Assembly: GCF_964204645.1 (NCBI RefSeq)
Contig: NC_134028.1
Coordinates: forward strand, 23,494,345 to 23,558,344
Length of the DNA stretch: 64,000 nt
Source of the DNA: Tubulanus polymorphus
Lineage: Eukaryota; Animalia; Nemertea
Reading direction: 5' to 3'
The notes under the pieces are model-generated. The model did not search any database, was not told the DNA's origin, and saw only the letters and a list, made by a program, of their open reading frames with translations. This document shows positions 10,719 to 38,815 of the stretch, piece after piece (the first letter of the stretch is position 1; every line of letters starts with the position of its first letter). A program made the position numbers and the translations under genes.

Positions 10719-11703
10719 GATTCTCGCCTTAACCAACTCGCAAATACGACTGATCACTGATACCTTTTACGCAACCACGATATCTATATATCTATGTTAA
10801 CAATGAGAATCTCGAACTATTTACTTGCGTTTTACTTTCATATCAAATATTCTCGTGGATAGCTTGACCTCATTTATCGTACTAAGTATTTGCGCTAATT
10901 CCAGGTATTGTAAAAACCTCGTACACGGTATGTTCAATAAGTTCATGTTTTAGTCTTTGAAAAATCCTTTATTCCCGTGTCTACGCAGTATCGGGGAGTT
11001 TTCTACTTGGCAAGCGAAAGTAGACACTCCTTTTGTTAAATTCCTAGACAAATCTAGACGTGGAATGATCAATCATTGAGAAATAAAAAATTTCAACTTG
11101 TTTCAAAAATGTTTTTTATTGAATGTTTTTCTTTTCTATTCTTGCACTATTCCAAAGAGCTGCCTTTATTCCAAGAGAAACCACCGCCCCACGATACAAA
11201 CGACACGTATATATGATAAATCCTCACGAAAGTTCTCACGATTTTGCAGACGATACGTAATTATCAATTCACATTAAAGGCCACGAAAATTCTAGCTTAC
11301 TTTTTCCTCTGCGTTATTATGGGCGGTAACTGGTACGAAAATATTTAACACGAAATAACAGCTAATAGCAATAAATAAGCGGACAATCTATGGGTTAGTG
11401 ACCAAAATTATTTGCTTTTGGTTATTCTATTTGGATTGAGGCTCAATCTTGAATGAAAATATCGTAATAGACATCATTACCATCTATCACCAAAGCAGCA
11501 GTTATGTAATTACAGTCAGATATAATAAGTGTAATATATGATCCGCTAATAGAATAAGCCACGAATTTTCCTACGTATCTGTCATCTGATATTTAGGAAT
11601 TGCAGGACAAAGTACCAGGCTCGTGTAAGCTTAATGATCGCCTTTATCTAAGAAAATGTATGATGTCTTTATTTCTCGAAACAAAAAATTGTTCGCTTTC
11701 AGG

Positions 11704-14246
11704 ATGATTCCTACATTGATAGCGTTCATTGCTGCGGCATTTGGAGTCTGTAATGCTTTCTATATAGAAAAGCGTGATGATGTTGGAGCCGAATGTGGCT
11801 GTCTTCCACGTCAATTTGGTGGCAACTATGAATTCCGCTTTTTGGACTTCGGTCGCGAGAATCATCCCAACAAGGATTTGACGACTTTCATCCTCGAAGG
11901 ACGGTATGTACTATCAAAGTATTGTTATTCAAGAGATCGAGAGGTTAAAAAAATCATTTATTATTTTCCTGCTATTATTCCTAATCTATTTTACTATCCG
12001 TTTTAACTAAATTGCTTTACGTTCCGATCATTTGGAATCTGTCAGTTCACCATGCTCAATCCAAAATAGATGGTTCTCCATGCCAGTTTACTCAATGGTC
12101 ATATCTATAGGTCTATCATAGATATTATATTTTCTGAGCGACCAGAGCATGGCCGCTCAGAAATGCGGCCATGCTCTGGTCGCAATAAACAATATGATGT
12201 AAATCACATAATACCAAGGATCTATGAAGTTATTTCAAGTTTGCAAATATTGATAATTTTGAATTGGCCGATAACCAGTCAGGCCCCGATGTATTGATGA
12301 CGTAGAGCACATCTCAAAAATAACTATTAGAATTTATCAGAAATGAAATAAGAGTTATGAAATATATTTACTTACAAAGTAAGCGCCTAAGTTTACAATT
12401 GTGATTTTTAATTTTCGAACGCCAATATGGGTACTATATACGAGGTATCAATGTATGTAAACATGTACCGGTTTGTACGGCATCTAACAACCGCACAAGA
12501 CACCGGTAAGTCACAAGGTCCAATTACCATACTCTTTATACGTATATCGTAAGACAATCAGTTATCGGATATGAATTATGTTTTATAGATTATGAACGTA
12601 TCTAAGCGTTTTCTCCAAAATTAATAAATTAATGTATCAATATTATGTAGATCAACTTAATCTTTTGACAAGGGATCAGGGGCAACGAATTCCCAATTTT
12701 TCGGATGTTCCAATACTAGGTTTATTTCAGATTTGATAAACGTATATTCCATTTTTTTTATACAAATTTCTGTTCGTTTAGAATCGTGATAAATATGGAC
12801 GAATTGAAATACTACGTGACGATAGCGAACAGGAAAAGAGCAGCTGGGTTTGAAGGCAAGGATGAATATGGTTGGTATGGACCATTGAACTATGCCTTGA
12901 TGGGTGACCTTACCAAAGTAAGTACAACGTTTCAGTGTTTCAAAATTTCAAAGTTTATTTTCCTCCTTATTTTACAGAAAAAAAAATTTGAGCACTGCCT
13001 AGTCTATCCTACAATGAATATTACATAACACATGGTGGCCAGAAGATGGCAAAAAAACAAAACAAAATTATTTCGCAGGAGTTTTTGCATAAGTACATTC
13101 ATTAATATTGATCTGATACAATCACGCTTTTAAAAAATATTTATGAATCGCTATCAAAAAAGAGGAATATAGTGCATTGGGAGTATATTTGGTGAGTATT
13201 TCAGGGGGTAGTGTTATAACAGTTTATTTGTTTATAAAGTATAACGGGCAAGCCGTTTCTCGTACTTTGCCGTGTTAAAAAGTGCCTGAAGTGCGTATTG
13301 CCTTGATCGCCTGTAGTAGAACGCTGGTAAGTATTTATGTCTTAAATTTTGAAAAAAGTAACATTCTAAATTAGAATGGAACTCGTCACCGACGAGGTTC
13401 ATAATGCACTTATTTCCACGTTCATCCCTAGGGATATTATGGAAACGACCGGTCTCAATAATAGGTAGTTAGTGGTTCGAGCATTAGAATTTACATAGCA
13501 TTATACAAATAAATACTAAGTAACAATGCGGCATAAGTAGAGGTTTGTAATTTATATAATATTCAATTGTCACATCTTTACGTACAGAATAAGCTATCGA
13601 TGAAAACAGGAAGTCATTGTATGAACGCACATTATGAAACGACCTTTCTTCGCGGGAAAAAAGTAGGGAAAAAACTTGATAGCATTCGCTGTTACGCAAG
13701 TGAGTAAAAATGATATAGCTCCATGCGCGATAAGGATGGGAACAGTAATTTGTAATGATTTTGATATTTTAGGAAATACAGACAGTTCTACCGTGTCGAA
13801 CGGAACGGACGATTCTGGAAAGGGAATGACATTCGTGATACGTGAAACGTTGAGTGAATTGAATTTGACCTACTCACTACCAGACTGCCATTTGAACGAA
13901 ATTTCTGGAATAAAACTTGTACCACGTAGAGGTAAAAAAAGAAAAAAAATATCGGCTCACGCGGATAAGTATATGCACTTTTTAACGTCCATGCTTTCTA
14001 CTATGAGGTGAGGCAGTGTATCCTAAGTTTGACATTAAGATTGACAAATTGGATGCAAAAGAACTTGACGGGGTAAAATTATGTGATAAACCGATGAAAG
14101 AAATAACCACACACGTAAGTTCAACAAACAATGAGAAAATGTGTTCGTCCTCGTCGAATCGCTGAATACTTTTGAGTTTCTCTGGTTTTCTCTTTCAGCA
14201 AATACCATCGCTCTTCCCCTATCCATTCAACACAGAGCTCGTCTGA
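11704..14246 (+). CDS. Secreted ependymin-related (EPDR-like) protein, copy A1, 6 coding exons
   Basis: Exons 11704-11903, 12782-12917, 13588-13699, 13773-13931, ~14008-14114 and 14199-14246 splice in frame. Signal peptide, CGCLPRQFGG, IVINMD, HC..RCYA, YSLPDCHL and KLCDK reproduce ependymin Cys spacing. Gene model strong; family call moderate. Confidence 0.7.
13215..13560 (-). mobile_element. Non-LTR retrotransposon (RTEX-like) 3' fragment in the A1 intron between coding exons 2 and 3
   Basis: Homologous to 26214-26560; encodes degenerate SNH.LPIIETGRF.NIPRDER...DEFH. Confidence 0.7.
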
Positions 14247-14798
14247 AGTAGACAGATATGAACTCAGAATAAAAAGCGATCAAACTTGTATTGATTATGC
14301 TTAACTGACTATGTATTACAATAAACTGAATTATAAGTATTTATTGCTATTCTGTATTTCGTGTATACCTTTATTACCAATGAAACACTCTGCCGAGCTG
14401 TGAGGATAAACCTCATTTTCTAACAGTAAATAATCAATTCTAAAAAATATTACTTAAGCTAATAGTTTATTCGACTTTTCAACTATAACCTAAAAATGAT
14501 CATCTTCAGGAATACTGAATTGAAGCACAATTTTGAATACGTATATTCAAAAGATTGCCTTTTTTAAAAACGGGTAAACATTCATGAATATAAATGAACT
14601 ATTTCTGATGAGATTATATCGGTAATTTTTGCAATTCATTCAATTCTAAATTCCATTAGTGCATTAGCTTTTGCGCTATCTTCATTCATCATTTAAGAAC
14701 CTAAATGTAGACGAGGCGTGGAATTCACGCTATTTGGAATATCATTACTTTAAGTATTTCATTTCAAATCCCGCCGTCGTCGACGCCAGTCAGAAAAC

Positions 14799-17470
14799 AT
14801 GTTCGCTATCGTCACAGTTCTCGGCATCTTATTTCGAATAGCGACGCTTTGTTCGTCGAAGAAGATTTATAGCGGTAAGTTCATATCGATTCATTGTTTC
14901 TTCGACTCATTAATATTGTAAAATCCTCATTCACTGTTGTTGTCTGTCATAATTTCAACGATATTTTGGATGCTGTTTTAGGTGCTTCGACGAATGTGTC
15001 CAGTTGTTATAACGATGGCAGCTGGTGTTCCGAAACCGAATCCTGTTATCTAATGGGAACATGTTGTCCGAGTTATGAAACTAGTGAAAATAAGTCAATC
15101 GTGATAAGCGGGGATGAGAAATTGGAAAACGGTCGGTTTTCCTACTACGTCAGTTGCGTCAATTTCGACGTGCCATATTTTGAAATGTATGCCAAAGGAC
15201 GTGACGATCTTTGGGCAGTATCGATGTGTCCGCTGCAGTACCGCGATAACTCAATCCGTCAACTTTGCCAAAATCCTTCTAATATAGATGACAATTCACA
15301 ACTCTCCGACCTAATCCAATATACACCAGTCATTTACAGAAAAATTCTTTTTCGTAACTATTATTGCTTCAGTTGTCATATAGACGCCGTTCCGAATGAT
15401 TTCGAATTGAAACAAGTCCAAATTGAGTTCGTCCATCCAGAATTTCCACGGCCAGAAGATAGTTCCGCCGTCAACATCAAACTGTTCCCACGATTGAAAA
15501 ATCTGTATGACGTAATCTTTAAATGGGACAGGTTACTGACGACGAAGTGTTTTAACGCGGATTTTCATCGACAGATTACGAGGTGTCCGAATCAGACGGA
15601 TTCGTTATGTCATCAATACGTGGAAACAGTGAGCCATACACGACTCAACATCATATTCAGGAACTACCACTGCGCTGTTTGCCACGGTTTCAACCTCGAA
15701 GAACTCGCCTGTCATCAGTCGTACGGCGCAACTTTCATGCGTGTATTCGCTAAATTATCGATCTTGTTTGATCTATCAAAACCAGATGTAACTGTAGCGC
15801 AACTGCGCCAATATGGGACATTAGTGGATTCATCGCTAGGGTGTAAAGTCCCGGGTATGATCTACAATACAATCACCAAAATGTGTCAAAATCGTTCTGA
15901 CTTCGAGGAAATGTTTCCAGAATCGCATCTATATCGACAGGTCTACGTAAATTTGCGATTGCAGCATATATCTAAAACCATATACGCTCATTTTTTCGAC
16001 AAGCTGAAAAATACGTTTAGCGTCTTCACGGGAGATTTTAATGCTAATATTTCCATCGTGACAAACTGGTGCAACCAATCGACGTGTTTACACGTGATCA
16101 GTTTCTCGCTGAAAGTTTTCACCGATTTGACCGAGAGTCAAATACACGACAAAATAACGATCTCCGCCGAAACACCGAATTCGGAACACGATATTTTCAA
16201 AATCGTACAACTAACAGTCGCAAATTTTGAAAACCACCAACCGCAAAAAGATTGCGTCAAAAAACGATTCCCAGAACAAAACATATCATGGACGATACAG
16301 CATGGAATTCAGTATATTCGACTAATTGATGAATCAAATAAGAATGCGACAGACATGCGATCTAGATGGTTACCAGTTCGACTTGATTCCGGGGTTCATA
16401 TCAAATACATTCAACGAAATGGAAGAAAACGAAAAGAAATCTTCGTTTGCAAACGAGAGTTTTGTAAAAACGAAAGGATTTTCAGTCGTTCATTTGTGAC
16501 CAATTCTATAAGTGGTTTGAGCTTAGTAATTCCAGACGAATTAGATCTAACTCTAAGTAGAGACCAGGTGAGATTGATGGGTAATATCTCGGTCGTCTGT
16601 CTGGACGAGTTTCTAGAACGTCATTTCGCTGAATCTACGAACATCGAAGGTATTATAACTGTAGTCACGTGTTCCTTGTCCCTAGCAGGACTAACGTCGC
16701 TTCTACTGACCTATTTTTTATTCTCAGCTTTGCGGACAGTTCCCGGTTTGACGCTGATGCATCTGTCCGCTTCGCTATTCCTCGTCGTACTTATTTTCAA
16801 CGCAATCATATCACGGGAATTTCTGACGCATTATTGGATGCTCTGTAATATCCTCGGTATTTCTACTCATTATCTTTGGTTCGTCGTTTTTTCTTGGACC
16901 ACGGTGATCAGTTACGATACGTTCCACGCGTTCAGCAATTCAACAGTCGCCGAGAACTCGCAGAAGCTCCTAAGATATCGCTATTATTGTTTATTCGCGT
17001 GGTTATTCCCGCTTTTCCCCATATTCGTATTCACCGCAATAACCTTCGCGTTACCCGACACTGGATTCAAATACGCCGACCAACGAAAGAGAATTTGTTG
17101 GATCTCGAATCATCAGCAACTTGTGTTTACATTTCTGTCTCCGATTTTAATTCTATGTTTAATTAATTTGATCTACTATGTGTTAACTCTGCGGGCTATA
17201 TTCAAGGCGAAGAAAGCCGCCAGTTCGGCTCGATCCAATCACGATAAAAGTTATCTATTCATCGTCAAACTTTCATTGATAATGGGTCTGACGTGGTGTC
17301 TCGGTTTATTGGTATCGATGTTCGATTCTGAAATACTTCGTATTTTTTATACGACGTTCAACGGGTCCCAGGGATTCCTCATTTTTATTTGCTTCGTGTT
17401 GAGACCGAAAGTTTTTCGCTTGTATCGGCGACTTTTTGAAAAGTGTTGCAAATACAACGGTGTCAAGTAA
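14799..17470 (+). CDS. Class B (7tm_2) Methuselah/adhesion-like GPCR with Cys-rich ectodomain, copy B1
   Basis: Signal exon MFAIVTVLGILFRIATLCSSKKIYS (14799-14874) spliced to a long exon from 14982. Somatomedin-B-like CYLMGTCCPSY, two FRNY.C..CH repeats, and 7TM motifs LRTVPG, THYLW, AWLFP, CWI, LIMGLTW, FNGSQGFLIF. Confidence 0.9.
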
Positions 17471-18563: not shown

Positions 18564-20782
18564 ATGATTCCTACATTGATAGCGTTCATTGCTGTGGCAT
18601 TTGGAGTCAGTAATGCTTTCTATATAGAAAAGCGTGATGATGTTGGAGCCGAATGTGGCTGTCTTCCACGTCAATTCGGTGGCAACTATGAACTCCGATT
18701 TTTGGATTTGGGTGATGAATATAATCCCAACAAGGATTTGACGACTTTTATCCTCGAAGGACGGTATGTGCTATCAAGTATTGTTATTCAAGAGATTGAG
18801 AGGTTGATGAAATCCGTTTATTGTACCTGGTCTAATATATTTCACTATCCGCTTTAACTAAATTGCTACGTTCCGATCATGTTGAATCTGTCAGTTAACC
18901 ATGCTCAATCCAAGGCAAGAAAATTAACTCGATAGTTTAATGACGCTTTGGAAAATATTATCGCATATTGCTTGATATTGTCGACAATGAACGATACAAT
19001 ATACATCATATAATAATTAAGGATCTATGAAGTTGTTTCAGATTTGAAAATATCGATAATTGAATTTGAATTGGCCGGCAACCAGTCTAGCCCAGATATA
19101 TTGACGACGTAGTGCACATCTCCTCAAGAATAATTATCAAATTCTATCAAGAATGAAATAAGAGTTATGAAATATATCTAATTACAAAATTAACGCCAAA
19201 ATTTTCAATAGTTATCTTGAAACGCCAAGACGGGTGACGTAGGCGCGTCGACTCACACAGAACCCCCTAAAATAATACATAGTATCAATCTACATAAACA
19301 TTATCGTAACGGTTTGTACGGCACCAAACAACCGCGCTAAGAAACGTCACAAGAACCAATTACCATACTATTTATACGTTCATCGTAAGACTAGATATCG
19401 GACATGATCTATGTTTTAGAATGTATCTAAGCGTTTTCTCCAAAATACATGTATCAATATAATGTAGATCAACTTTTCTCTTCTTAACAAGGGATCTATA
19501 TACTTAACATGGGGCCATAATGTCCTAATTTTTCGGATGATACTAGGTTTATTTCATATTTTGATATACGCATATTCCAATTTTGATATACGCATATTCC
19601 ATTTTTATACAAATTTCTATTCGTTTAGAATTGTGATAAATATGGACGAATTGAAATTCTACGTGACGATATCGAACAGGAAAAGACTAGCTGGGCGTGG
19701 AGGCAACGATGATGCTGATTGGTACGGACCAATGAACTACGCCTTGATCGCTGACCTCACCAGAGTAAGTAAAAAGTTCCAAAGTTTCAAACCTTTTTTC
19801 ATTCAAGTTTATTTCACTCCATACTATACAAAAAATAATTATGAGTACAGATTAGTCTGTTCTACAATACATATTACATTATTACATATTACAAGGTGGC
19901 CAGAAGATGGGGCCAAAAAATCAAAAATGAAATAATTTTGCAGGAGTACATACATTGATACATAGAACTAATACAATCCAGCTTTTATAGAATACTTTTC
20001 AATCGCTATCAAAAAAGAGGATTGTAGTGCGCTGTAAGTCTAACTGGTGAGGAATTCAGGGGGTAGTGTTAACAGTTTATTTGCCTCTTACAGAATATAA
20101 TATCGAGGGAACAAGACAAATATTGTTTGAACGTACATTTTGAAGAGGCGTCTCGTCAGTGGAAAAAAGTAGGAAAAAGATTTGATAGCATTCGCTGTTA
20201 TGCAAGTGAGTAAAAATGAAATAGCTCCGTGTATACGATAAGGATGGGAACAGCGATTTGTAATGATTTTGATATTCAAGGAAATACAGAAAGTTCTACC
20301 GTGTCGAACAGAACGGACGATTCTGGCAAGAGAATGACATTCATGATACGTGAACTTTTCAGAGTATTCAATTTTACCTACTCGCTACCAGACTGCCATT
20401 TGAACGAAATTTCAGGAATATTAGTTATGCCACGTAGAGGTAAAAAATAAAATATTCGCTTACGCTGATAAGTATATGCACCTTCTTTTACGTCAATGCT
20501 TTTCACTCTGTAGGTCGGGAAGCGTTTCCTAAGTTTGACATTAAGATTGACAAATTGGATGCAAAAGAACTTGAAGGGGTAAAATTATGTGATAAACAGA
20601 CGAGAGAAATTTCCGCATCCGTAAGTTCAACAAACAATGTAATGAGAAAATGTGTTCGTCCTCGTCGAATCGCTGAATACTTTCTGAGTTTCTCTGGTTT
20701 TTTATTACAGTTTATACCATCACTCCTGCCCTATCCATTCAACAGCATCCTGGAGAGGATTGATATTTTTGATTATTTATAA
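18564..20782 (+). CDS. EPDR-like secreted protein, copy A2
   Basis: Same six-exon structure in frame: MIPTLIAF...ILEGR|IVINMDELKF...DLTR|NIISREQDKYC...RCYA|...PDCHL...|...KLCDK...|FIPSLLPYPF...DYL*. Confidence 0.7.
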
Positions 20783-23700
20783 ATGACTATGAATTACAAT
20801 AAAGAGAATAAACATTTATTGCTATTCAGTATTTCATGTATACCTTTATTACCAATGAAACCTCTGCCGAGCAGTGAGGATAGCATAGAACCTCCCGTTC
20901 CAACAGTGAATAATCAAGTCTGAAATCTTACTTAAGCTAATAGTTTATTCGACTATTCGACTATAACCTAAGAAAATCATCTCCAGGAATACTGAATTGA
21001 AGCAACACTTTTGAATACATATATTCAAAAGAAGTTTTCGACGCGCATCACTGCGCCATGGTTAAAAAAGATAAATACAGATAATCGGGCGATAGAGATA
21101 CGTAGTCCCGTAGGTGACATGGTGAGAAAAAGAATTTTTTTTTGTGGGAACAAAATAACCTTTTCGTAGCCACGAAACACGTTTCGTTCGTTTATTCTTC
21201 CAATATTTCAAAGATCTACCTTTATTTCAAGAGAAACCACCGAATCACGATATAAACGATACATATGATACTTTTATTTACGATACATATATTACTTTTT
21301 CCTTTGCTTTATTATGCGCGACGAGTGGGACGAAACATTAACAGAAATAAACGCTAATAGCAATACATAAATGGACGAGCTACGGGTAAGTGGTCAGTAT
21401 TATTAGCTATTGGTTATTTTATTTTGATTATAGCTCAATCTTGAATGAAAAGATCGTTCAATAATCGGCATCATTACCATCTATCACAAAACACCAATTA
21501 CGTAATGACTGCCAAAATGTAATAACCTACAAATAGAATTACGTAGGCGTGGATTTTTCTACGTATATGTCATTTCATAGCGAGGAAATGCGAGAAAATG
21601 TACTACGCTCATGTAAGCTTATAATGAATGACTATCTTTAAAATCTGCATATAAAACTGAATATATGGCTTTAAGGTTCAATACAAAACATTTTTCACTT
21701 TCAGGATGATTTCTACATTGATAGCGTTCATTGCTGTGGCGTTTGGAGTCATTAATGCTTTCTATATAGAAAAGCGTAATGATGTTGGAGCCAAATGTGG
21801 CTGTCTTCCACGTCAATTCGGTGGCAACTATGAACTCCGATTTTTGAATATGGGTGGTAAATATGATCCCTACAAGGATTTGACGACTTTTATCCTCGAA
21901 GGACGGTATGTGCTATCAAGTATTGTTATTCAAGAGATTGAGAGGTTGATGAAATCCGTTTATTGTACCTGGTCTAATATATTTCACTATCCGCTTTAAC
22001 TAAATTGCTACGTTCCGATCATGTTGAATCTGTCAGTTAACCATGCTCAATCCAAGGCAAGAAAATTAACTCGATAGTTTAATGACGCTTTGGAAAATAT
22101 TATCGCATATTGCTTGATATTGTCGACAATGAACGATACAATATACATCATATAATAATTAAGGATCTATGAAGTTGTTTCAGATTTGAAAATATCGATA
22201 ATTGAATTTGAATTGGCCGGCAACCAGTCTAGCCCAGATATATTGACGACGTAGTGCACATCTCCTCAAGAATAATTATCAAATTCTATCAAGAATGAAA
22301 TAAGAGTTATGAAATATATCTAATTACAAAATTAACGCCAAAATTTTCAATAGTTATCTTGAAACGCCAAGACGGGTGACGTAGGCGCGTCGACTCACAC
22401 AGAACCCCCTAAAATAATACATAGTATCAATCTACATAAACATTATCGTAACGGTTTGTACGGCACCAAACAACCGCGCTAAGAAACGTCACAAGAACCA
22501 ATTACCATACTATTTATACGTTCATCGTAAGACTAGATATCGGACATGATCTATGTTTTAGAATGTATCTAAGCGTTTTCTCCAAAATACATGTATCAAT
22601 ATAATGTAGATCAACTTTTCTCTTCTTAACAAGGGATCTATATACTTAACATGGGGCCATAATGTCCTAATTTTTCGGATGATACTAGGTTTATTTCATA
22701 TTTTGATATACGCATATTCCAATTTTGATATACGCATATTCCATTTTTATACAAATTTCTATTCGTTTAGAATTGTGATAAATATGGACGAATTGAAATT
22801 CTACGTGACGATATCGAACAGGAAAAGACTAGCTGGGCGTGGAGGCAACGATGATGCTGATTGGTACGGACCAATGAACTACGCCTTGATCGCTGACCTC
22901 ACCAGAGTAAGTAAAAAGTTCCAAAGTTTCAAACCTTTTTTCATTCAAGTTTATTTCACTCCATACTATACAAAAAATAATTATGAGTACAGATTAGTCT
23001 GTTCTACAATACATATTACATTATTACATATTACAAGGTGGCCAGAAGATGGGGCCAAAAAATCAAAAATGAAATAATTTTGCAGGAGTACATACATTGA
23101 TACATAGAACTAATACAATCCAGCTTTTATAGAATACTTTTCAATCGCTATCAAAAAAGAGGATTGTAGTGCGCTGTAAGTCTAACTGGTGAGGAATTCA
23201 GGGGGTAGTGTTAACAGTTTATTTGCCTCTTACAGAATATAATATCGAGGGAACAAGACAAATATTGTTTGAACGTACATTTTGAAGAGGCGTCTCGTCA
23301 GTGGAAAAAAGTAGGAAAAAGATTTGATAGCATTCGCTGTTATGCAAGTGAGTAAAAATGAAATAGCTCCGTGTATACGATAAGGATGGGAACAGCGATT
23401 TGTAATGATTTTGATATTCAAGGAAATACAGAAAGTTCTACCGTGTCGAACAGAACGGACGATTCTGGCAAGAGAATGACATTCATGATACGTGAACTTT
23501 TCAGAGTATTCAATTTTACCTACTCGCTACCAGACTGCCATTTGAACGAAATTTCAGGAATATTAGTTATGCCACGTAGAGGTAAAAAATAAAATATTCG
23601 CTTACGCTGATAAGTATATGCACCTTCTTTTACGTCAATGCTTTTCACTCTGTAGGTCGGGAAGCGTTTCCTAAGTTTGACATTAAGATTGACAAATTGG

Positions 23701-25105: not shown

Positions 25106-27265
25106 CATACCTGGTCTAATCTATTTCACTATCCGCTTTAACTAAATTGCTACGTTCCGATCACGTGGAATCTGTCAGTTAACCATGCTCAATCCAAGGC
25201 AAGAAAATTAACTCGATAGTTTAATGAAGCTTTGGAAAATATTATCGCATATTGCTTGATATTGTCGACAATGAACGATACAATATACATCATTTGATAA
25301 TTAAGGATCTATGAAGTTGTTTCAGATTTGAAAATATCGATAATTGAATTTGAATTGGCCGGCAACCAGTCTAGCCCAGATATATTGACGACGTAGTGCA
25401 CATCTCCTCAAAAATAATTTTCAAATTTCATCAGAAATAAAATTAGAGTTATGAAATATATCTAATTACAAAATGAACGCCAAAATTCTCAATAGTCATT
25501 TTGAAACTCTCAAGATGGATGACATAAGCACTATCGTAAGACTAGATATCGGATATGAATTATGTTTTATAGATTATGAACGTATCTAAGCGTTTTCCAG
25601 AATAAATGTATCAATATAATGTAGATCAACTTATCTCTTCTTGACAAGGGATCTATATACTTAACAGGGTGCCATAATTTCCAAATTTTTCGGATGATAC
25701 TAGGTTTATTTCATATTTTATATGCGTACATTCCATTTCTTATACAAATTTCTATTTGTTTAGAATCGTGATAAATATGGACGAATTAAAATTCTATGTG
25801 ACGCTAACGAACAGGAAAAGACTAGCTGGGCGTGGAGGCAACGATGAAGCTGGTTGGTACGGACCAATGAACTACGCCTTGATGGCTGACCTCACCAAAG
25901 TAAGTACCAAGTTCCGAAGTTTCAAACCTCTTTTCATTCCAGTTCATTTTGATCCATATTTTACAAAAAAAAATTCTGAGCACATATAAGTCCGTCCTAC
26001 AATACATATTAAATATTACATATCACATGGTGGCCAGAAGATGACCAAAAAAATTAAATAAAACAATTTCGCAGGAGTTTTTGTAAGTACATACATTGAT
26101 ATAGATCTGATACAATAAATAACGCTTTTTAAAGAATACTTATGAATCGCTATCGCTAAAAGAGGAATATAGTGCACTGTAAGCCTAACTGGTGAGGAAT
26201 TCAGGGGGTAGTGTTATAACAGTTTATTTGCCTCTTTAATATAACGGGCAAGCCGTTTCTTGTACTTTGCCGTGTTAAAAAGTGCCTGAGGTGCGTATAG
26301 ATTTGATCGCCTGTTTTTAGTAATTGTGTAAATAAAGTTACATTCTAGAATGAAATGGAACTCGTTACCGACGAGGTTCATAATGCACTTATCGCATATG
26401 CGTTCATCCCTAGGGATATTATAGAAACGACCGGTCTCAATTGGTAGTTTGTGATTTGAGCATCTTAATCTACATATCATTATACAAATACATACTGAGT
26501 AACTTTGCGGCATTAGTGGAGTTTGCGAGGTTTGTAATCTAAATAATGATATTCAGATATCACATTTTTACAGAATATAATATCGAGTAAAACAGGCAAT
26601 CGTTGTGCGAACGCATATTTTAAATGGGCGAATCGTCAGTGGAAGAACATAGGAACAAATTTTGAAATCATTCGCTGTTACCCAAGTGAGTAAAAATGAC
26701 ATAGCTTCACATATGCGATAAGGATGAGAACAGCGATTTGTAATGATTTTGTTATTTTAGGATATACAGAAAGTTCTACCGTGTCGAACAGAACGGACGA
26801 TTCTGGAATGAGAATGACATTCATGTTACGTAGAATGTTCAGTGCATTCAATTTGACCTACTCACTAGCAGACTGTCAATTGATCGAAATTTCTGGATTT
26901 AAATTCATGCCACGTGGAGGTAAAAAAAAACAAAATATTCGCTAACGCTGATAAGTATATGCACCTTCTTTTACGTCAATGCTTTTCACTATGTAGGTAA
27001 AGTAGTGTATCCTAAGTTTGACATAAAGATTGACAAATTGGATGCAAAAGAACTTGACGGGGTAAAACCATGTGATGGACCGATGAGAGTAATTCCCGCA
27101 TACGTAAGTTCAAGAAACAGTGCAATGAGAAAATGGGTTCGGTCCCCGTCGAATCGCTGAATACTTTTGAGTTTCTGTGGTTTTTTCTTTCAGGAAATAC
27201 CATCACTCCTGCCCTATCCATTCGACGATCTGCCTGGAGAAGATATTGTCTTTGACTTTTTATAA
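24848..27265 (+). CDS. EPDR-like secreted protein, copy A4
   Basis: Six exons in frame; exon 3 NIISSKTGNRCANAYFKWANRQWKNIGTNFEIIRCYP has the ependymin-type CxP; ends EIPSLLPYPFDDLPGEDIVFDFL*. Confidence 0.7.
26214..26560 (-). mobile_element. Non-LTR retrotransposon (RTEX-like) C-terminal CCHC fragment in the A4 intron between coding exons 2 and 3
   Basis: ICRLRCSNHKLPIETGRFYNIPRDERICDKC...NEFHFILEC is the typical C-terminal motif of RTEX-type LINE ORF2. Confidence 0.8.
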
Positions 27266-28417: not shown

Positions 28418-28576
28418 TACGGATGCCTACGGAAGCCCCTTGGTGACATATGAGATAATCTTTTTCACAATTTCGACTTATTATGTCTAAATTCGACTTA
28501 ATACGAAATTCGACATCAAAAGTCGAAGTCGAAATTATGAGAACATTATCTCGTCCGTCACCTAGAGGCTTCCGTA
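28418..28576. mobile_element. MITE with TACGGAAGCC...GGCTTCCGTA ends and 6-bp target duplication
   Basis: Flanked by GCGTCA/GTGTCA; the paralogous empty site near 17730-17750 reads GTTCA-GTGTCA-ACTTTTAATG. Confidence 0.8.
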
Positions 28577-29407: not shown

Positions 29408-31077
29408 ATGATTCCTACATTGATAGCGTTCATTGCTGCGGCGTTTGGAGTCAGTAATGCTTTCTATATAGAAAAGCGTGATGATGTTGGAGCCGAATGT
29501 GGCTGTGTTCCACGTCAATTTGGTGGCAACTATGAATTCCGTATTGTGGATACTGGTCGCAAGAATGATCCTAATAAGGAATTGACAACTTTCATCCTCG
29601 AAGGACGGTATGTGCTATCGAGTATTATGATAAAAAATTGGGAAGTTAGAGAAATCCATTTATCATATCTGCTATTTTCCGATATCACACATCTGTTTCA
29701 CTATTTGCTTTAAGTACGTAGAATTTTACGTTCAGGTCATGCGGAATTTGTCAATTGACCATGCTTAACACGACGTATTTAGCTCTGCATGTCAGTCATC
29801 TCAGTGGTCCTATCTATAGGTCATTATAGATATTATATAAGTTGTTGATATATCCAGGGATGAAAAATTGACTCGGAAGGTAAAAGGTTAATCGCATTCT
29901 AGTCTAGCCCAACCCTTTACCCAACCATTCATCGTATTTAAGTCGTTTAGATAATTTTTCATCCCTGGCCTATTTTACCTTACCCTTGTAAATAGATTGT
30001 TAGACAATTCGATGTCGGGTACGAATTCTATTTCATATTATATATCTAAGCGTTTTTCCCAAGAATTAAGGTCAGATGAGTTTAAGAGTGTCTCGAAGGA
30101 AGAAGCAACGGATCTACGAACTTAACAACGGGCGATAAATTTCAATTTGTCTTTCGGAGGTTCTTTGAGATTCGAAAGATTTCATTTTTCATACGATATT
30201 GTTATTCGTTTAGAATCGTGATAGACATGGACGTAAAGAAATTATACGTGGCGATAACGAACAGGAAAAAACCAGCTGGAATTGAAGGCAACAATGAAGC
30301 TGGTTGGTATGGACCGTTGGACTATGCCTTCATGGGTGACTTCACCAAAGTAAGTACACATACTTGAACTAAATGAAACTTCGCAATTCTTAATTCAAAT
30401 TTGATCCAATTGTCACATTTTTACAGAATATACTATCAATGAAAACAGGAAGTTTTTGTATAAACGCACATTATGAATCGGCCTTTCTTCGAAGGAAAAA
30501 ATTGGGGGAAAAGCTTGATAGCATTCGCTGTTTCCTAAGTGAGTAAAAATGAAATAGCTCCATGTATACGAAAAGGATGTAAACAGCGATTTGTAATGAT
30601 TTTGATGTTTTAGGAAATACAGACAGTTCTACCGTGTCGAACAGAACGGACGATTCTGGAAAGGGAATGACATTCATGTTACGTGAAATGTTCAGTGAAT
30701 TCAATTTGACCTACTCGCTACCAGACTGCCATTTGAACGAAATTTCTGGATTATATTTGTTACCGCGTAGAGGTAAAAACAAATAAATATTCGCTTACGC
30801 TGATAAGTATATGCACCTTCTTATCCGTAAATGCTTTTCACTATGTAGGTGAGGCGGTCTTTCCTAAGTTTGACATAAGCATTGACAAATTTGATGCGAA
30901 GGAACTTGACGGGGTAACATTATGTGATAAACCGATCAAAGAAATATCTACACACGTAAGTTACACATGAGCAAATGTGGACCCCTTCGTCGAATCGATG
31001 AAATATTTTTAAGCTTCTCTGCTTTTATCTTTTAGCAAATACCATCACTCTTCTTACCCTATCCGTTCAACACATGA
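29408..31077 (+). CDS. EPDR-like secreted protein, copy A5
   Basis: Six exons in frame: CGCVPRQFGG, IVIDMDVKKLY, FCINAHY..RCFL, YSLPDCHL, TLCDK, QIPSLFLPYPFNT*. Confidence 0.7.
29854..29968. mobile_element. Small TIR element in the first coding intron of A5
   Basis: CCAGGGATGAAAAATT ... AATTTTTCATCCCTGG perfect 16-bp inverted ends; not seen in the other A copies. Confidence 0.7.
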
Positions 31078-31583: not shown

Positions 31584-34247
31584 ATGTTCGCTATCGTCAC
31601 AGTTCTCGGCATCTTATCTCAAATAGCGACGCTTTGTTCGTCGAAGAAGATTTATAGCGGTAAGTTCATATCGATTCAGTGTTCGACTCGGCTTTAAAAT
31701 CATCATTCACGCTGTTGTTGTCTGTCATGATTCTACGATATTTTGGATGCTGTTTTAGGTGCTTCGACGAATGTGTCCAATTGTAATAACGGTGGCAACT
31801 GGTGTTCCGAAACCGAATTCTGTCATTCAATGGGAACATGTTGTCCGAGTTATGAAACTAGTGAAAATAAGTCAATCGTGATGGGCGGGGATGAGAAATT
31901 GGAAAGCGATCAGTTTTCCTACTACACCAGTTGCGTCAATTTCGACGTGCCATATTTTGAAATGCATGCCAAAGGACGTGACGATCTTTGGGCAGTATCG
32001 ATGTGTCCGCTGCAGTACCGCGATAACTCAATCCGTCAACTTTGCCAAAATCCTTCTGACATAGATGACAATTCGCAACTCTCCGACCTAATCCAATATA
32101 CACCAGTCATTTACAAAAAAGTGCTCTTTCGAAACTTTTATTGCTTTAGTTGTCATATAGACATCGTTCCAGATAATTTCGAATTGAAACAAATCCAAAT
32201 TGAGTTCGTCAAACCGGAAATTTCACGGCTAAAAGATAGTCCCACCGTTGACATCAAACTGTTCCCACGATTGAAAAATTCGTACGACGTAAAATTCAAA
32301 TGGGACACTTATCTGACGACGAGATGTTTTAACGCGGATGTTCATCGACAGATTACGAGGTGTCCGAATCATACGGATTCGTTATGTCATCATTACGTGG
32401 AAACAGTGAGCCATACACGACTCAACATCATGTTCAGGAACTACCACTGCGCTGTTTGCCACGGTTTTAACCTCGAAGAACTCGCCTGTCATCAATCGTA
32501 CCGGGCTGACTTCGCGCGTGCATTTGCCAGATTATCGATCTTGTTTGACCTATCAAAACCAGATGTAACTGTAGCGCAACTGCGCCAATTTGGGACATTA
32601 GTGGACTCGTCGCTAGGGTGTAAAGTCCCGGGTATGATCTACAATACAATCACCAAAATGTGTCAAAATCGTTCTGACTTCGAGGAAATGTTTCCAGAAT
32701 CACATCTATATCGACAGGTCTACGTAAATTTGCGATTGCAGCACATATCTAAAACAAAATACGCTCATTTTTTCGACAAGCTGAAAAATACATTTAGCGT
32801 CTTCACGGGCGATTTTAATGCTAATATTTCTATAGTGACAAACTGGTGCAACGAATCGACGTGTTTACATGTGATCAGTTTCACGCTGAAAGTTTTCACC
32901 GATTTGACCGAGAGTCAAATACACGACAAAATAACGATCTCCGCCGAAACACCGAATTCGGAACACGATATTTTCAAAATCGTACAACTAACAGTCGCAA
33001 ACTTTGAAAACCACCAACCGCAAAAAGATTGCGTCAAAAAACGATTCCCAGAACAAAACATATCGTCGGCGATACAACAAGGAATTCAGTATATTCGACT
33101 AGTCGATGAATCAAATAAGAATGCGACAGACATGCGATCTAGATGGTTACCAGTTCGACTTGATTCCGGGGTTCATATCAAATACATTCAACGAAATGGA
33201 AGAAAACGAAAAGAAATCTTCGTTTGCAAACGAAAGTTTTGTAAAACCGAAAGGATTTTCAGTCGTTCATTTTTTACCAATTCGACAAGTGGATTGAGCT
33301 TAGTAATTCCAGGCGATTTGGATCTAACTCTAAATAGAGATCAGGTGATATTGATGGGTAATATCTCGGTCGTCTGTCTGGACGAATTTCTAGCACGTCA
33401 TTTGACTGACTCTACGAACATCGAAGGTATTATAACTGTAGTCACGTGTTCCTTGTCCCTAGCAGGACTAATGTCGCTTCTACTGACCTATTCTTTATTC
33501 TCAGCTTTGCGGACAGTCCCCGGTTTGACGCTGATGCATCTGTCCGCTTCGCTATTCCTCGTCGTACTTATTTTCAACGCGATCATATCACGGGAATTCC
33601 TGACGCATTATTGGATGCTCTGTAATATCCTCGGTATTTCTACTCATTATCTCTGGTTCGTCGTTTTCTCTTGGACCACTGTGATCAGTTACGATACGTT
33701 CCACGCGTTCAGCAATTCAACAGTCGCCGAGAACTCGCAGAAGCTCCTAAGATATCGCTATTATTGTTTATTCGCGTGGTTATTCCCGCTTTTCCCCATA
33801 TTCATATTCACCGCAATAACCTTCGCGTTACCCGATACTGGATTCAAATACGCCGACCAACGAAAGAAAATTTGTTGGATCTCAAATCGGCTGCAACTTG
33901 TGTGTACATTTCTGTCTCCGATTTTAATTCTATGTTTAACTAATTTGATCTACTATGTCTTAACTCTGCGGGCTATATTCGAGGCGAAGAAGGCCGCCAG
34001 TTCGGCACGATCCAATCGCGACAAAAGTTATCTATTCATCGTCAAACTTTCATTGATAATGGGTCTGACGTGGTGTCTTGGTTTATTGGTTTCGATGTTC
34101 GATTCTGAAATACTTCGTATTTTCTACACGACGTTCAACGGGTCCCAGGGATTCCTCATTTTTATTTGCTTCGTGTTGAGACCGAAGGTTTTTCGTTTGT
34201 ATCGACGACTTTTTGAAACGTGTTGCAATAACAACGGTGTCAAGTAA
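31584..34247 (+). CDS. Class B Methuselah/adhesion-like GPCR, copy B2
   Basis: Signal exon from ATG 31584 plus an 834-aa ORF highly similar to B1; intact 7TM. Confidence 0.9.
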
Positions 34248-34577: not shown

Positions 34578-34860
34578 AAATATGCGCTTAACCGTTTCGT
34601 CGATGCTTGAAACGAACTTGATTTTTCAGCGAATCATTTTCAATATCCAGCTTCGCCATGTGACTAATGATTATGGGCGAGAACTAGAACGAAAATATCT
34701 TACAGGTAATAACAGCTGATAGTAATAAATAAGGGGACGATCTACGTGTATGAATTTAAATGTCGTCTTCAATATGCGTCATAACCATTTCAAAACAATG
34801 ACGGACAAAAGTTGATCACCTACAAGTAAGGCGTGGATTTTCCTGCGTATGTTCAATTTA
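34578..34860. pseudogene. Duplication junction: 3' fragment of the PKI-repeat gene fused to a remnant of the A-gene upstream region
   Basis: 34578-34666 matches ~38983-39071 (minus strand SHMAKLDIEN..VRFKHRRNG*). 34670-34860 matches the A upstream region at ~11318-11580. Confidence 0.75.
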
Positions 34861-35492
34861 ATTCAACGATCTCTTTATTGTACTGAATACACCACTTTCT
34901 GGCCGAGATGTACAGAGTGATATCTACAAAATAGTATTTTACAAACCATAGACGCGAAAATCTACGCGCTAAATGCAACAAACAATATGAAGAAGGGGTC
35001 GAGTCACAAGAATTCTTTGGAGTAAATCTAATTTTTTCTTTCAGAACATACCGTTACTCTTACCCTACGACTTTATACTCTGCAGCCCTTAAACCTAGAA
35101 TTCGCTAGTGATTCTAGAATCCCATGAATAATAACTGAAGATAAAAGAAATTAAACTCGTGTAGATTATGTATTACACGTGCTACTGACATGATCACAAG
35201 TATGCATCGTTATTCTGCCGTTATTTTTGCCATACGTGTATTCAGATGCCCACTTTTTACAACGGCGAAATTCACGGGTATACAAATTGCCTACTATTTT
35301 TAATAAGATTATATCAGCCACTTTTATACGCGTCTAACTCTAAACGCCATTAGTGCATTAGCTTTTGCGCTATCTTCAATCATCATTTAAAAAAAAAACT
35401 AAATGTAGACGAGGCGTGGAATTCGCGCTAATATCATTACTTTAAATATTCCTTATGAAATTCTTTATCGTCGTCGACGCCAGTCAGAAAAC

Positions 35493-38163
35493 ATGTTCGC
35501 TATCGTCACAGTTCTCGGCATCTTATCTCAAATAGCGACGCTTTGTTCGTCGAAGAAGATTTATAGCGGTAAGTTCATATCGATTCAGTGTTTCATCGAC
35601 TCAGCTTTAAAATCATCATTCACGCTGTTCTTGTCTGTCATAATTCTACGATATTTTGGATGCTGTTTTAGGTCCTTCGACGAATGTGTCCAAATGTAAT
35701 AACGGTGGCAACTGGTGTTCCGAAACCGAATTCTGTTATCTAATGGGAACATGTTGTCCGAGTTATGAAACTAGTGAAAATAAGTCAATCGTGATGGGCG
35801 GGGATGAGAAATTGGAAAGCGATCGGTTTTCCTACTACACCAGTTGCGTCAATTTCGACGTGCCATATTTTGAAATGTATGGCGACGTACGTGACGATCT
35901 TTGGGCAGTATCGATGTGTCCGCTGCAGTACCGCGATAACTCAATCCGTCAACTTTGCCAAAATCCTTCTGATATAGATGACAATTCCCAACTCTCCGAC
36001 CTCATCCAATATACACCAGTCATTTACAAAAAAGTGCTCTTTCGAAACTTTTATTGCTTTAGTTGTCATATAGACATCGTTCCAGATAATTTCGAATTGA
36101 AACAAGTCCAAATTAAGTTTGTCACTCCGATGATTCCACGGCTAGCAGATAGTCCCACCGTTGACATCAAACTGTTCCCACGATTAAGAAATTTGTATGA
36201 CGTAATATTTGAATGGGACAGTTATGTGACGACGAGATGTTTTAACGCGGATGTTCATCGACAGATTACGAGGTGTCCGAATCAGACGGATTCGTTATGT
36301 CATCATTACGTGGAAACAGTGAGCCATACACGACTCAATATCATGTTCAGGAACTACCACTGCGCTGTTTGCCACGGTTTCAACCTCGAAGAACTCGCCT
36401 GTCATCAATCGGACAACACATTTTTAATGAATGTATTCGCTAAATTATCGATCTTGTTTGACCTATCAAAACCAGATGTAACTGTAGCGCAACTGCGCCA
36501 ATATGGGAAATTAGTCGACTCGTCGCTAGGGTGTAAAGTCCCGGGTATGATCTACAATACAATCACCAAAATGTGTCAAAATCGTTCTGACTTCGAGGAA
36601 ATGTTTCCAGAATCACATCTATATCGTCCCCTGTACGTATATTTGCGAGTACAGCATATATTATCTAAAACCAAATACGCTCCTTTTTTCGACAAGCTGA
36701 AAAATACATTTAGCGTCTTCGCGGGGGATTTTAATGCTAATATTTCAATCGTGACAAACTGGTGCAACGAATCGACGTGTTTACACGTGATCAGTTTCAC
36801 GCTGAAAGTTTTCACCGATTTGACCGAGAGTCAAATACACGACAAAATAACGATCTCCGCCGAAACACCGAATTCGGAACACGATATTTTCAAAATCGTA
36901 CAACTTACAGTCGCAAACTTTGAAAACCACCAACCGCAAAAAGATTGCGTCAAAAAACGATTCCCAGAACAAAACATATCATGGACGATACAACAAGGAA
37001 TTCAGTATATTCGACTAGTCGATGAATCAAATGAAAATGCGACAGACATTCGATCTAGATGGTTACCAGTTCGACTTAATTCCGGGGTTCACATCAAATA
37101 CATTCAACGAAATGGAAGAAAACGAAAAGAAATCTTCGTTTGCAGACGAGAGTTTTGTAAAAACGAAAGGATTTTCAGTCGTTCATTTTTTACCAATTCG
37201 ACAAGTGGTTTGAGCTTAGTAATTCCAGGCGATTTGGATCTAACTCTAAATAGAGACCAGGTGAGATTGATGGGTAATATCTCGGTCGTCTGTCTGGATG
37301 AGTTTCTAGAGCGTCATTTCGCTGAATCTACGAACATCGAAGGTATTATAACTGTAGTCACGTGTTCCTTGTCCCTAGCAGGACTAACGTCGCTTCTACT
37401 GACCTATTCTTTATTCTCAGCTTTGCGGACAGTCCCCGGTTTGACGCTGATGCATCTGTCCGCTTCGCTATTCCTCGTCGTACTTATTTTCAACGCGATC
37501 ATATCACGGGAATTTCTGACGCATTATTGGATGCTCTGTAATATCCTCGGTATTTCTACTCATTATCTCTGGTTCGTCGTGTTCTCTTGGACCACTGTGA
37601 TCAGTTACGATACGTTCCACGCGTTCAGCAATTCAACAGTCGCCGAGAACTCGCAGAAGCTCCTAAGATATCGCTACTATTGTATATTTGCGTGGTTATT
37701 CCCGCTTTTCCCCATATTCATATTCTCCGCAATAACCTTCGCGTTACCCGATACTGGATTCAAATACGCCGACCAACGAAAGAGAATTTGTTGGATCTCA
37801 AATCGGCTGCAACTTGTGTGTACATTTCTGTCTCCGATTTTAATTCTATGTTTAATTAATTTGATCTACTATGTGTTAACTCTGCGGGCTATATTCAAGG
37901 CGAAGAAAGCCGCCAGTTCGGCTCGATCCAATCGCGATAAAAGTTATTTATTCATCGTCAAACTTTCATTGATAATGGGTCTGACGTGGTGTCTCGGTTT
38001 ATTGGTTTCGATGTTCGATTCTGAAATACTTCGTATTTTCTATACGACGTTCAACGGGTCCCAGGGATTCCTCATTTTTGCTTGCTTCGTGTTGAGACCG
38101 AAGGTTTTTCGCTTGTATCGACGACTTTTTGAAACGTGTTGCAATAACAACGGTGTCAAGTAA
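35493..38163 (+). CDS. Class B Methuselah/adhesion-like GPCR, copy B3
   Basis: Signal exon from ATG 35493 plus an 835-aa ORF; intact 7TM. Confidence 0.9.
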
Positions 38164-38444
38164 CATTGTTATAATAGTCCCAATAAATTGATTTAGATTT
38201 TGAAGCATCTTCATCTTTTTCCGGGCGTGAAAATTTGGTATATTTAAAGAGGTTCGTCTTCAACAAGGCTTTGAGTAGTTGTTTATAAAGGATCAATGGT
38301 TCAATGTCTCGCCAAACAACGCGAAGTAAAATGTTACACTATATAAACATTTAATTGATAGAAAATTGTCTCGATTTTATTCAGTGTAAACCTTTAATGT
38401 CTTTTATTAAAACGACCTCATACCTCGACTAAGTCTTAAGACGC

Positions 38445-38815
38445 CAAGGTTTTCGCTTGTATCGGCAACTTCTTGAAACGTGTTTGAACAACGGCGTTAA
38501 TTAATGTTTTTATAATAGTGTTTAGTTTGGAACGATATGAAAAAGAATAACGATAAACAATTTCAAAACTACGACTAATCAGCGATGTAATAAAATCTCG
38601 TTAAAACGATTTCATTTTCAAGTATATCCTTATCTTTTCCGGGCTTTAGATTGACATATTCTAACGAGGACTTTGAGTAGTTGTTAAAAAATGTACTGTT
38701 CAAAGTGATAGACAACAAACAGAATATGACATGCCAGTAATGAGACAGAACATTAGAAATTGGTTCGAACAAAAAGGCATTTATTTGTGAACAAGATAGT
38801 TAGAAAAATGTACAG
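38445..38815 (+). pseudogene. C-terminal relic of another GPCR copy plus its 3' flank (B-psi2)
   Basis: CAAGGTTTTCGCTTGTATCGGCAACTTCTTGAAACGTGT...AACAACGGCGTT matches the GPCR C-terminus; the downstream sequence matches the B2 3' flank at 34250-34565. Confidence 0.7.

What the first reader, a model, noticed from the sequence alone, without database searches (positions are those of the whole stretch)
11300..38815. Interleaved, co-duplicating array of secreted ependymin-like genes and Cys-rich class B GPCRs: candidate linked ligand-receptor system
Seen: the order is A1-B1-A2-A3-A4-Bpsi-A5-B2-(A upstream relic)-B3-Bpsi, all on the + strand. Each A that precedes a B stops ~0.5 kb before it. The A-to-B and B-to-A spacers are homologous between units, so the duplicated unit was A+B. 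Both families vary mostly in extracellular patches. Known: EPDRs are secreted LolA-fold proteins with a hydrophobic pocket, expanded in some marine invertebrates and proposed there as water-borne conspecific signals; I know of no established GPCR receptor for them. Inference: a physically linked, co-diversifying ligand (or ligand-carrier)/receptor locus, analogous to pheromone or self-recognition loci.
Basis: partly seen in the sequence, partly recalled or inferred. Interest (0 to 1): 0.88.

Follow-up and report, generated by a model that had tools for sequence, protein, structure and literature searches.

The report
Ribbon-worm secreted-protein plus receptor repeats
A ribbon worm has repeatedly copied a two-gene block made of a fast-changing secreted protein (likely a distant ependymin relative) and a GPCR-type receptor; the two likely travel together only because they are neighbours, but if the protein binds the receptor (untested) it would be the first receptor I could find for this protein family.

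Summary
The array is real. Five 6-exon genes for secreted 251-261-aa proteins (A) alternate with three intact and two broken 7tm_2 GPCR genes (B). Homologous spacers show that A+B was the duplicated unit. Source labels name Tubulanus polymorphus. A1 and A5 are spliced as modelled. A is under diversifying selection (2dL 17.4; 0 of 67 neutral simulations reach it). B is conserved in its 7TM part, and its selection signal rests on one 13-residue extracellular patch. A's ependymin identity is only a lead: language-model score 0.88 and a six-cysteine pattern, but no Pfam hit and two failed folds. B is adhesion/Methuselah-like, not secretin-type. Only 2 of 7 unit slots keep both genes intact, and A and B divergence do not track each other. 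A3 is an exact-repeat chimera that may be a copy-number variant or an assembly error. Binding, co-expression and cross-species synteny were not testable. Best reading: passive co-duplication of neighbours (0.55); A-to-B signalling 0.3. The scan's earlier notes held nothing similar.

The parts
11704..14246 (+). A1, secreted 253-aa protein; coding exons 11704-11903, 12782-12917, 13588-13699, 13773-13931, 14008-14114, 14199-14246
   Evidence: equals P0001; 5 of 5 introns joined in X8/X9 contigs
14247..14798 (+). A-to-B spacer: A 3'UTR (AATAAA at 14268, 14320) and inferred B promoter with AGGCGTGGAATT at 14714
   Evidence: promoter role inferred
14799..17470 (+). B1, 854-aa 7tm_2 GPCR; exons 14799-14874 and 14982-17470; signal peptide, about 560-aa ectodomain with 24 Cys, TM1 from residue 580
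15716..15754 (+). B1 codons 271-283: hypervariable ectodomain patch that carries all of B's positive-selection signal
18564..20782 (+). A2, 261 aa, intact; its B partner is deleted (junction at about 21032)
   Evidence: equals P0005
18730..25105 (+). Exact tandem repeat, 3234 nt at offset 3142 (18730-21963 = 21872-25105)
   Evidence: read depth in run X5 is 0.44x single copy
21706..23924 (+). A3, 261 aa, chimera of A4 exon 1 and A2 exons 2-6; very recent copy, copy-number variant or assembly error
24848..27265 (+). A4, 261 aa, intact
   Evidence: lies within P0003
27531..28417 (+). Bpsi: upstream region intact to about 27712, then three deletions (ATG, signal peptide, most of the ectodomain and the first TM helices lost); 3' end and 3' flank remain
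29408..31077 (+). A5, 251 aa, intact
   Evidence: equals P0002; 4 of 5 introns joined in X8/X9 contigs
31584..34247 (+). B2, 854-aa GPCR; exons 31584-31659 and 31759-34247
34670..35092 (+). Apsi relic: A upstream sequence (34670-34749, motif at 34829) and a last-exon remnant (35045-35092); no match to exons 1-5
35493..38163 (+). B3, 855-aa GPCR, intact although its A is a relic; exons 35493-35568 and 35672-38163
38433..38818 (+). Bpsi2: last about 24 codons and 3' flank of a B gene

Best explanation
This is a tandem array in which a block of about 6.7 kb holding one secreted-protein gene (A) and one GPCR gene (B) was copied several times and then lost single genes by deletion, and the two genes likely share the block only because they are close neighbours, each evolving under its own selection. 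Shown: the A+B unit, the independent deletions, spliced A1 and A5 transcripts, purifying selection on B's 7TM part, and diversifying selection on A and on one B patch. Inferred: copying by unequal crossing-over, with gene conversion homogenising B. Also inferred: A is a highly derived ependymin/LolA-type glycoprotein that is secreted, binds varied small hydrophobic molecules (lipids, pigments, chemical cues) and diversifies its binding loops to widen that range. Also inferred: B is an orphan adhesion/Methuselah-like receptor whose N-terminal Cys-rich region binds a separate extracellular ligand. On this reading A is not B's cognate ligand.
For: Only 2 of 7 unit slots keep both genes intact (A1-B1, A5-B2); 3 intact A lack an intact B, 1 intact B (B3) lacks an intact A, and 1 slot is a B remnant alone. 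Divergences do not track: the A relic of unit 6 is the most distant A (58-63% nt identity at exon 6) while B3 is the B closest to B2 (93.1% aa). A1-A5 dS is 0.18 against B1-B2 dS 0.10-0.12. The 3'UTR groups unit 1 with unit 4 (7 of 9 informative sites), whereas A1's protein is closest to A5. B's selection signal vanishes without codons 271-283 (2dL 15.3 falls to 2.1), whereas A's six high-posterior sites are spread over residues 49-239. Genes are tightly packed here (986 nt from the QVR-like ATG to A1's ATG). A and B upstream regions are not alike beyond shuffles in 15 of 15 pairs. EPDRs expand by tandem duplication and showed no synteny between the species compared (PMC6280359). Their shown activities are lipid and carotenoid binding (PMC6363788; PMC10470211). 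Methuselah-like GPCRs also expand in tandem on their own (PMC6408891; PMC4768249).
Against: The profile search found no A relative outside this array's own clusters (2 hits among 1.84 billion representatives, both own), so every A found sits in a B-linked unit. The 0.4-0.55 kb spacing is kept in 4 of 4 A-B junctions. The terminal branches of A2 and A4, which lost their B, have omega 1.75 vs 0.62 elsewhere (p=0.005; best of 4 branch models tried; A1's own branch is 1.27 in the free model). Proven tgrB/tgrC pairs show the same asymmetry: tgrB broken in 13 of 25 loci, tgrC intact in 24 of 25, identities 80-90% vs 65-70% (PMC12745789); here B is 91-93% and A 66-81% identical, leaving out the A2/A3 duplicate at 96%. 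A 12-mer, AGGCGTGGA(A/T)TT, precedes 3 of 3 intact B and 4 of 5 A start codons. The carrier role of A depends on an ependymin identity that was not established.
Confidence: 0.55

Rival explanations
1. A is a ligand or ligand-carrier for B in a loose, many-to-many way: secreted A, free or loaded with a lipid or pigment cue, docks on B's N-terminal Cys-rich region, and linkage keeps signal and sensor inherited and expressed together.
For: Every A slot was once followed by B. Both genes diversify outside the cell. A copies that lost B evolve faster. The asymmetry matches tgrB/tgrC. A shared upstream 12-mer. Starfish EPDRs are proposed water-borne signals (PMC6280359; PMC9759900).
Against: B3 stays intact without an A, and three A stay intact without a B. 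No paper naming a GPCR for an EPDR appeared in the listings. The branch result is post hoc and rests on four sequences. The 12-mer resembles a common Sp/KLF box (recalled), and the flanking regions are no more alike than shuffles.
Confidence: 0.22
2. Strict cognate lock-and-key cassettes (A1 to B1, A5 to B2) acting as a self-recognition or pheromone locus, with orphan copies as a recombination reservoir.
For: Two intact pairs differ in both A loops and B patches. Precedent in tgrB1/tgrC1 (PMC12745789).
Against: A and B divergences do not track. B ectodomains are 88-91% identical against 81% for A1-A5. Two intact pairs are too few to test tree congruence. A palaeonemertean is a solitary animal with no known allorecognition system (recalled).
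Confidence: 0.08
3. A is not an ependymin but an unrelated lineage-specific secreted beta-rich protein (mucus, defence or gamete-surface protein) under an arms race; B is a bystander.
For: No Pfam PF00811 hit at E<=10 for 4 of 4 A proteins scanned; no EPDR among PDB sequence hits; no EPDR in the 1.84-billion-protein profile search. The atlas top hit (0.89) is an unnamed flatworm-rich cluster, and the ependymin hits share 154 and 146 features, below the 170 typical of true members.
Against: Atlas ranks 2-3 are ependymin clusters (0.88), and 10 of the 10 best family-bearing hits share a family or clan. Signal peptide, six invariant Cys spaced like EPDR profile 2, and two N-glycosylation sequons.
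Confidence: 0.15

Closest known systems
Ependymin-related proteins (EPDR, PF00811), clade 2 / cysteine profile 2; tandem expansions in Acanthaster, Branchiostoma and Amphimedon (PMC6280359)
   Same: Signal peptide, six conserved Cys with similar spacing (A: 31, 33, 123, 147, 188, 228; profile 2: alignment columns 23, 24, 94, 107, 148, 186), N-glycosylation sequons, tandem expansion; atlas score 0.88.
   Different: No Pfam or HMM match; 251-261 aa vs a median of 213; CxC instead of CC; no Pro two residues after the fifth Cys; interleaved with GPCR genes, which the parts of that paper I read (parts 1-3 of 7 plus passages) do not report.
Somatomedin-B-bearing adhesion-like / Methuselah-like class B GPCRs of amphioxus, Nematostella, Saccoglossus, molluscs and annelids (PMC2246102, PMC4768249; atlas clusters with PF28443 DUF8401 + PF01033)
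   Same: 7tm_2 domain; nearest solved 7TMs are adhesion GPCRs (ADGRL2, E 8e-14); long Cys-rich ectodomain whose top three atlas clusters carry DUF8401, two of them with SMB (0.79-0.80, lead level); lineage-specific tandem expansion.
   Different: No Pfam SMB, HRM, GAIN/GPS or Methuselah_N hit; the SMB-like Cys cluster is degenerate (consensus recalled); placement by tree was not possible; coupled to a secreted-protein gene.
Dictyostelium tgrB1/tgrC1 linked ligand-receptor pairs (PMC12745789)
   Same: Two-gene unit duplicated as a block, frequent breakage of one member, unequal divergence rates, recombination.
   Different: tgrBC are divergent genes on one promoter, both on the cell surface, with proven binding. 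Here the genes are head-to-tail, A is soluble, B is a GPCR, and no interaction is shown.
Human RCCX module (RP-C4-CYP21-TNX) (recalled, no call)
   Same: Unrelated neighbours co-duplicated as a module, with pseudogenes, chimeras, conversion and copy-number variation.
   Different: Unrelated genes and clade; an analogy for passive co-duplication only.

Membership tests
EPDR (A genes) | N-terminal signal peptide, no TM segment | tested here: met
   One hydrophobic segment, within residues 1-16, in 5 of 5 (hydropathy scan only)
EPDR (A genes) | Conserved Cys profile (three universal Cys plus profile-specific ones) | tested here: inconclusive
   Six invariant Cys in 5 of 5, spaced like profile 2 as described in PMC6280359, but judged by spacing only; the paper's alignment files could not be read
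EPDR (A genes) | Match to the PF00811 HMM | tested here: not met
   0 families at E<=10 for P0001, P0002, P0003, P0005
EPDR (A genes) | LolA-type curved 11-stranded sheet with a hydrophobic groove | tested here: inconclusive
   AlphaFold2 on 4-sequence alignments gave pLDDT 28.0 and 32.7; models too poor to test the fold
EPDR (A genes) | N-glycosylation sequons | tested here: met
   N159 and N180 in 5 of 5; a weak criterion
EPDR (A genes) | Dimerisation and binding of lipid or carotenoid | not testable with these tools
   Needs purified protein
Class B (7tm_2) GPCR (B genes) | PF00002 above the gathering score | tested here: met
   68.8-74.6 bits vs cut-off 20.6 in 3 of 3
Secretin-type (B1) hormone receptors | Short hormone-binding (HRM) ectodomain; 7TM nearest to secretin receptors | tested here: not met
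   560-aa ectodomain with no HRM hit; the 18 best of 21 PDB hits are adhesion GPCRs and none is a secretin-family receptor
Adhesion GPCR | GAIN domain with GPS motif before TM1 | tested here: not met
   No Pfam GAIN/GPS hit; a GPS-like pattern (recalled consensus) is absent in 3 of 3; no structure was made, so a divergent GAIN is not excluded
Methuselah-like / SMB-DUF8401 GPCRs | 7TM groups with the Mth/Mthl clade in a tree | not testable with these tools
   No relatives were retrieved
Methuselah-like / SMB-DUF8401 GPCRs | SMB and DUF8401 in the ectodomain | tested here: inconclusive
   Atlas 0.79-0.80 with 149-187 shared features, lead level; no SMB or DUF8401 hit in the local Pfam scan, whose copy may predate PF28443
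Linked ligand-receptor loci (tgrBC-like) | Tight linkage and co-duplication | tested here: met
Linked ligand-receptor loci (tgrBC-like) | Matched divergence of the partners | tested here: inconclusive
   Only two intact pairs; divergences do not track; branch test p=0.005, post hoc
Linked ligand-receptor loci (tgrBC-like) | Direct, allele-specific binding or activation | not tested
Linked ligand-receptor loci (tgrBC-like) | Linkage conserved in related species | not testable with these tools
   No genome is held for this window, and no A homologue outside the array was found

The most novel reading that the evidence does not exclude
A linked signal-sensor cassette in a nemertean: a divergent ependymin-type secreted protein is the ligand, or the lipid/cue-presenting carrier, of an orphan SMB/Methuselah-like GPCR encoded 0.5 kb downstream, and the pair is duplicated and diversified as a unit. 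This would give the first receptor for an EPDR and a first ligand for this lophotrochozoan receptor group.
Probability: 0.25. Interest if true: 0.87.

Novelty: new variant of a known kind. Interest (0 to 1): 0.52.

Why it matters
How EPDRs are sensed is open: they are proposed water-borne signals in starfish (PMC6280359, PMC9759900), yet my searches listed no paper naming a receptor. The SMB/Methuselah-like GPCRs of lophotrochozoans are largely orphans (recalled). This locus offers a small test matrix of 4 distinct A proteins by 3 B receptors, with named variable sites. If the link is passive, what remains is a fast-evolving orphan family of secreted proteins in a ribbon worm and a clear case of two-gene birth-and-death evolution.

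Tried and rejected
Fold of A: two AlphaFold2 runs on 4-sequence alignments failed (pLDDT 28.0 and 32.7). Three fold searches gave best Z 4.2 and 4.5 and no Foldseek hit at E<=0.001; no EPDR was listed. This shows nothing either way. The lipocalin-1 sequence hit (E 0.5-1.7) was rejected as chance. B was not folded. B relatives: the ectodomain word search found none, not even B itself (4887 candidates), and 0 of 10 single-exon B variants were in the collection; sensitivity or missing annotation may explain this. Metagenome scans for B and for A found nothing. NCBIfam gave nothing meaningful. Expression: no RNA holder was listed on record. X8/X9 contigs did not cover B1, A2, A3 or A4 exons, and X6/X7 gave only 18-nt matches; these blanks are no evidence. 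Promoter homology between A and B was rejected (15 of 15 pairs within shuffle range). An in-frame A-exon-4 to B-exon-2 fusion is possible by phase, but no such joint was listed. Gene-wide positive selection on the B ectodomain was rejected: it rests on one patch. A pigment-carrier role was considered because a sponge EPDR binds carotenoids (PMC10470211); pigment in this species is described as granules inside ciliated cells (PMC13565374), which gives no support for a secreted carrier. Earlier scan notes: none relevant.
Full report
Source and gene models. Homologue search labels the A proteins as uncharacterised Tubulanus polymorphus (Nemertea) proteins. No whole genome was held for the window, so all genome-level questions stay open. 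From splice signals I built five A models of six coding exons (200, 136, 112, 159, 107 and 42-72 nt) with identical phases. Four match RefSeq proteins. Contigs from runs X8 and X9 (one sample, library not on record) join all five A1 introns and four of five A5 introns at the modelled GT..AG sites, so these two are transcribed and spliced. B1-B3 have a 76-nt signal-peptide exon and one 2.5-kb exon.

Architecture. Self-alignment shows A1-B1 homologous to A5-B2 over 3987 nt continuously (13548-17516 vs 30391-34293, 88.6%). All four A-to-B spacers align (67-83%), and two full B-to-A spacers align at 86.8%. The duplicated unit was therefore A+B. Later deletions acted on single genes: B was removed whole behind A2, gutted behind A4 by three deletions, and left as a 3' stub at 38433-38818; A was gutted before B3, leaving upstream sequence and a last-exon remnant. 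Of seven slots, two hold both genes intact, three hold only A, one holds only B, and one holds neither.

A3. It lies in a 3234-nt exact repeat. In raw reads of run X5, eight bins inside the repeat average 2.7 against 6.2 in eleven single-copy bins (ratio 0.44), while B1, which collects reads of all B copies, averages 2.7 times single copy. That fits one copy in that animal. Against this, two of the eleven single-copy bins were also low (1.9 and 3.4), so divergent alleles could explain the dip, and one X1 contig runs across the A3-specific junction with one difference (21794-22277). Recent copy-number variant and assembly error both remain possible. I left A3 out of the codon-model selection tests.

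What A is. Each A has a signal-like hydrophobic N-terminus and no other hydrophobic segment, six invariant cysteines and two sequons. Pfam, NCBIfam and PDB sequence searches gave nothing meaningful. A four-sequence profile read against 1.84 billion representatives returned only the array's own two clusters. The ESM Atlas ranks an unnamed cluster first (0.89) and two ependymin clusters next (0.88; 154 and 146 shared features), which the tool rates as a lead only. The cysteine spacing resembles EPDR profile 2 as described by McDougall et al. (PMC6280359; I read parts 1-3 of 7 and passages; its alignment supplements were unreadable, and would bear on this comparison). Both folds failed. I put EPDR-type ancestry at about 0.7 and do not file A as a member.

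What B is. PF00002 is met in 3 of 3. The nearest solved 7TMs are adhesion GPCRs, but no GAIN/GPS, HRM or Methuselah_N domain was detected. The ectodomain's nearest atlas clusters carry DUF8401 and Somatomedin B in molluscs and annelids (0.79-0.80, lead level). SMB-bearing adhesion-like or Mth-like receptors are described in amphioxus, Nematostella and Saccoglossus (PMC2246102, passages; PMC4768249, passages), and tandem Mth-like expansions in octopus (PMC6408891, passages). B is likely one of these orphans, not a secretin-type hormone receptor.

Selection. A paralogues are 66-81% identical, A2/A3 aside, with pairwise dN/dS 0.59-1.23. Exon 3 (69-85% nt identity) is less conserved than introns 3 and 4 (80-96%). 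With my own codon models, M1a vs M2a gives 2dL 17.4 (omega 5.2 at 11% of sites; residues 49, 122, 124, 130, 197 and 239 at posterior above 0.9). It gives 10.4 when double-nucleotide changes are allowed and 14-15 on the two other trees; 0 of 67 neutral simulations reach 17.4 (maximum 8.6). Gene conversion was not modelled and four sequences are few. B has omega 0.32 in the 7TM part and 0.61 in the ectodomain, with most change in residues 20-300; its positive signal comes from codons 271-283 alone.

Do A and B co-evolve? With two intact pairs, tree congruence cannot be tested. What can be seen does not track: unit 6 has the most distant A remnant and the B closest to B2; synonymous distance is 0.18 for A1-A5 and 0.10-0.12 for B1-B2; the 3'UTR groups unit 1 with unit 4. 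In favour of a link, the tips leading to A2 and A4, which lost B, run at omega 1.75 vs 0.62 (p=0.005). This was the best of four branch models; the contrast of A1 and A5 against the rest gave p=0.052, and A1's own branch is 1.27 in the free model. A 12-mer precedes most A and all B start codons (10 matches in the window vs 0.45 expected, nine of them inherited copies of two ancestral sites), but the upstream regions as a whole are unrelated. The tgrB/tgrC study (PMC12745789, passages) shows that a true linked pair can lose one member often and diverge unequally, so orphan A copies weaken only the strict lock-and-key reading.

Mechanism and verdict. The most likely reading (0.55) is passive co-duplication in a compact region, as in the human RCCX module (recalled): A as a secreted binder of hydrophobic molecules that diversifies its loops, B as a conserved orphan receptor with one variable patch. 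EPDR1 has a lipid groove (PMC6363788, passages) and a sponge EPDR binds carotenoids (PMC10470211, passages), which is the basis for the carrier inference. Loose ligand or carrier signalling gets 0.22, strict cognate cassettes 0.08, and a non-EPDR defence or mucus protein with a bystander B 0.15. Searches for ependymin with GPCR, with receptor terms, with methuselah and with nemertea (listings only, open-licence library) showed no report of such a unit or of an EPDR receptor. The arrangement appears undescribed and is cheap to test, but the ligand-receptor claim is untested. Interest 0.52.

Noticed in passing
window 10020-10718 (-): Three-exon, 132-aa Ly6/uPAR (Quiver-like) gene with signal peptide and hydrophobic tail, head-to-head with A1 (986 nt between ATGs); Pfam QVR E 0.008, below cut-off. 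Not part of the repeated unit.
   Followed up: partly
window 41870-51581 (+): Tandem pair of ionotropic-receptor-like genes, 85% alike over two 2.3-2.4 kb blocks; Lig_chan E 1e-26. A second duplicated receptor family 3 kb from the array.
   Followed up: no
window 14714, 18407, 21545, 24687, 27642, 29250, 31499, 34829, 35412, 52356: 12-mer AGGCGTGGA(A/T)TT about 157 nt before A start codons and about 81-85 nt before B start codons; degenerate before A1; possibly a shared Sp/KLF-type promoter box (recalled).
   Followed up: partly
window 11625, 18474, 21613, 24755, 29318: Candidate donor of a short 5' untranslated intron before each A ATG; in A2 it reads AT instead of GT. A2 and A3 also have an AAG acceptor at exon 4 where the others have TAG.
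   Followed up: no
window 38900-39715 (-): 271-aa frame with repeated motifs weakly like TC1 (PF15063, E 0.003, below cut-off).
   Followed up: no
window 57672-59511 (+): F-box gene exons (F-box-like E 7.5e-6) with a DUF4508-like stretch.
   Followed up: no
window about 5300-8200 (-): Serine carboxypeptidase S10 gene; exon at 6916-7284, E 9e-21.
   Followed up: no
window 2290-2572, 19016-19322, 22158-22464, 25300-25418; 28420-28570; 40352-40535: A repeat element inside A intron 1, shared in inverted orientation with 2290-2572; a short insertion in the Bpsi-A5 spacer where many reads show opposite-strand joints and loose ends; a roughly 180-nt (TA)n tract.
   Followed up: no
window 13001-14334: Read depth of run X5 drops over A1 exons 3-5 (1.9 and 3.4 vs about 7), which could mean strongly divergent A1 alleles in that animal.
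   Followed up: no
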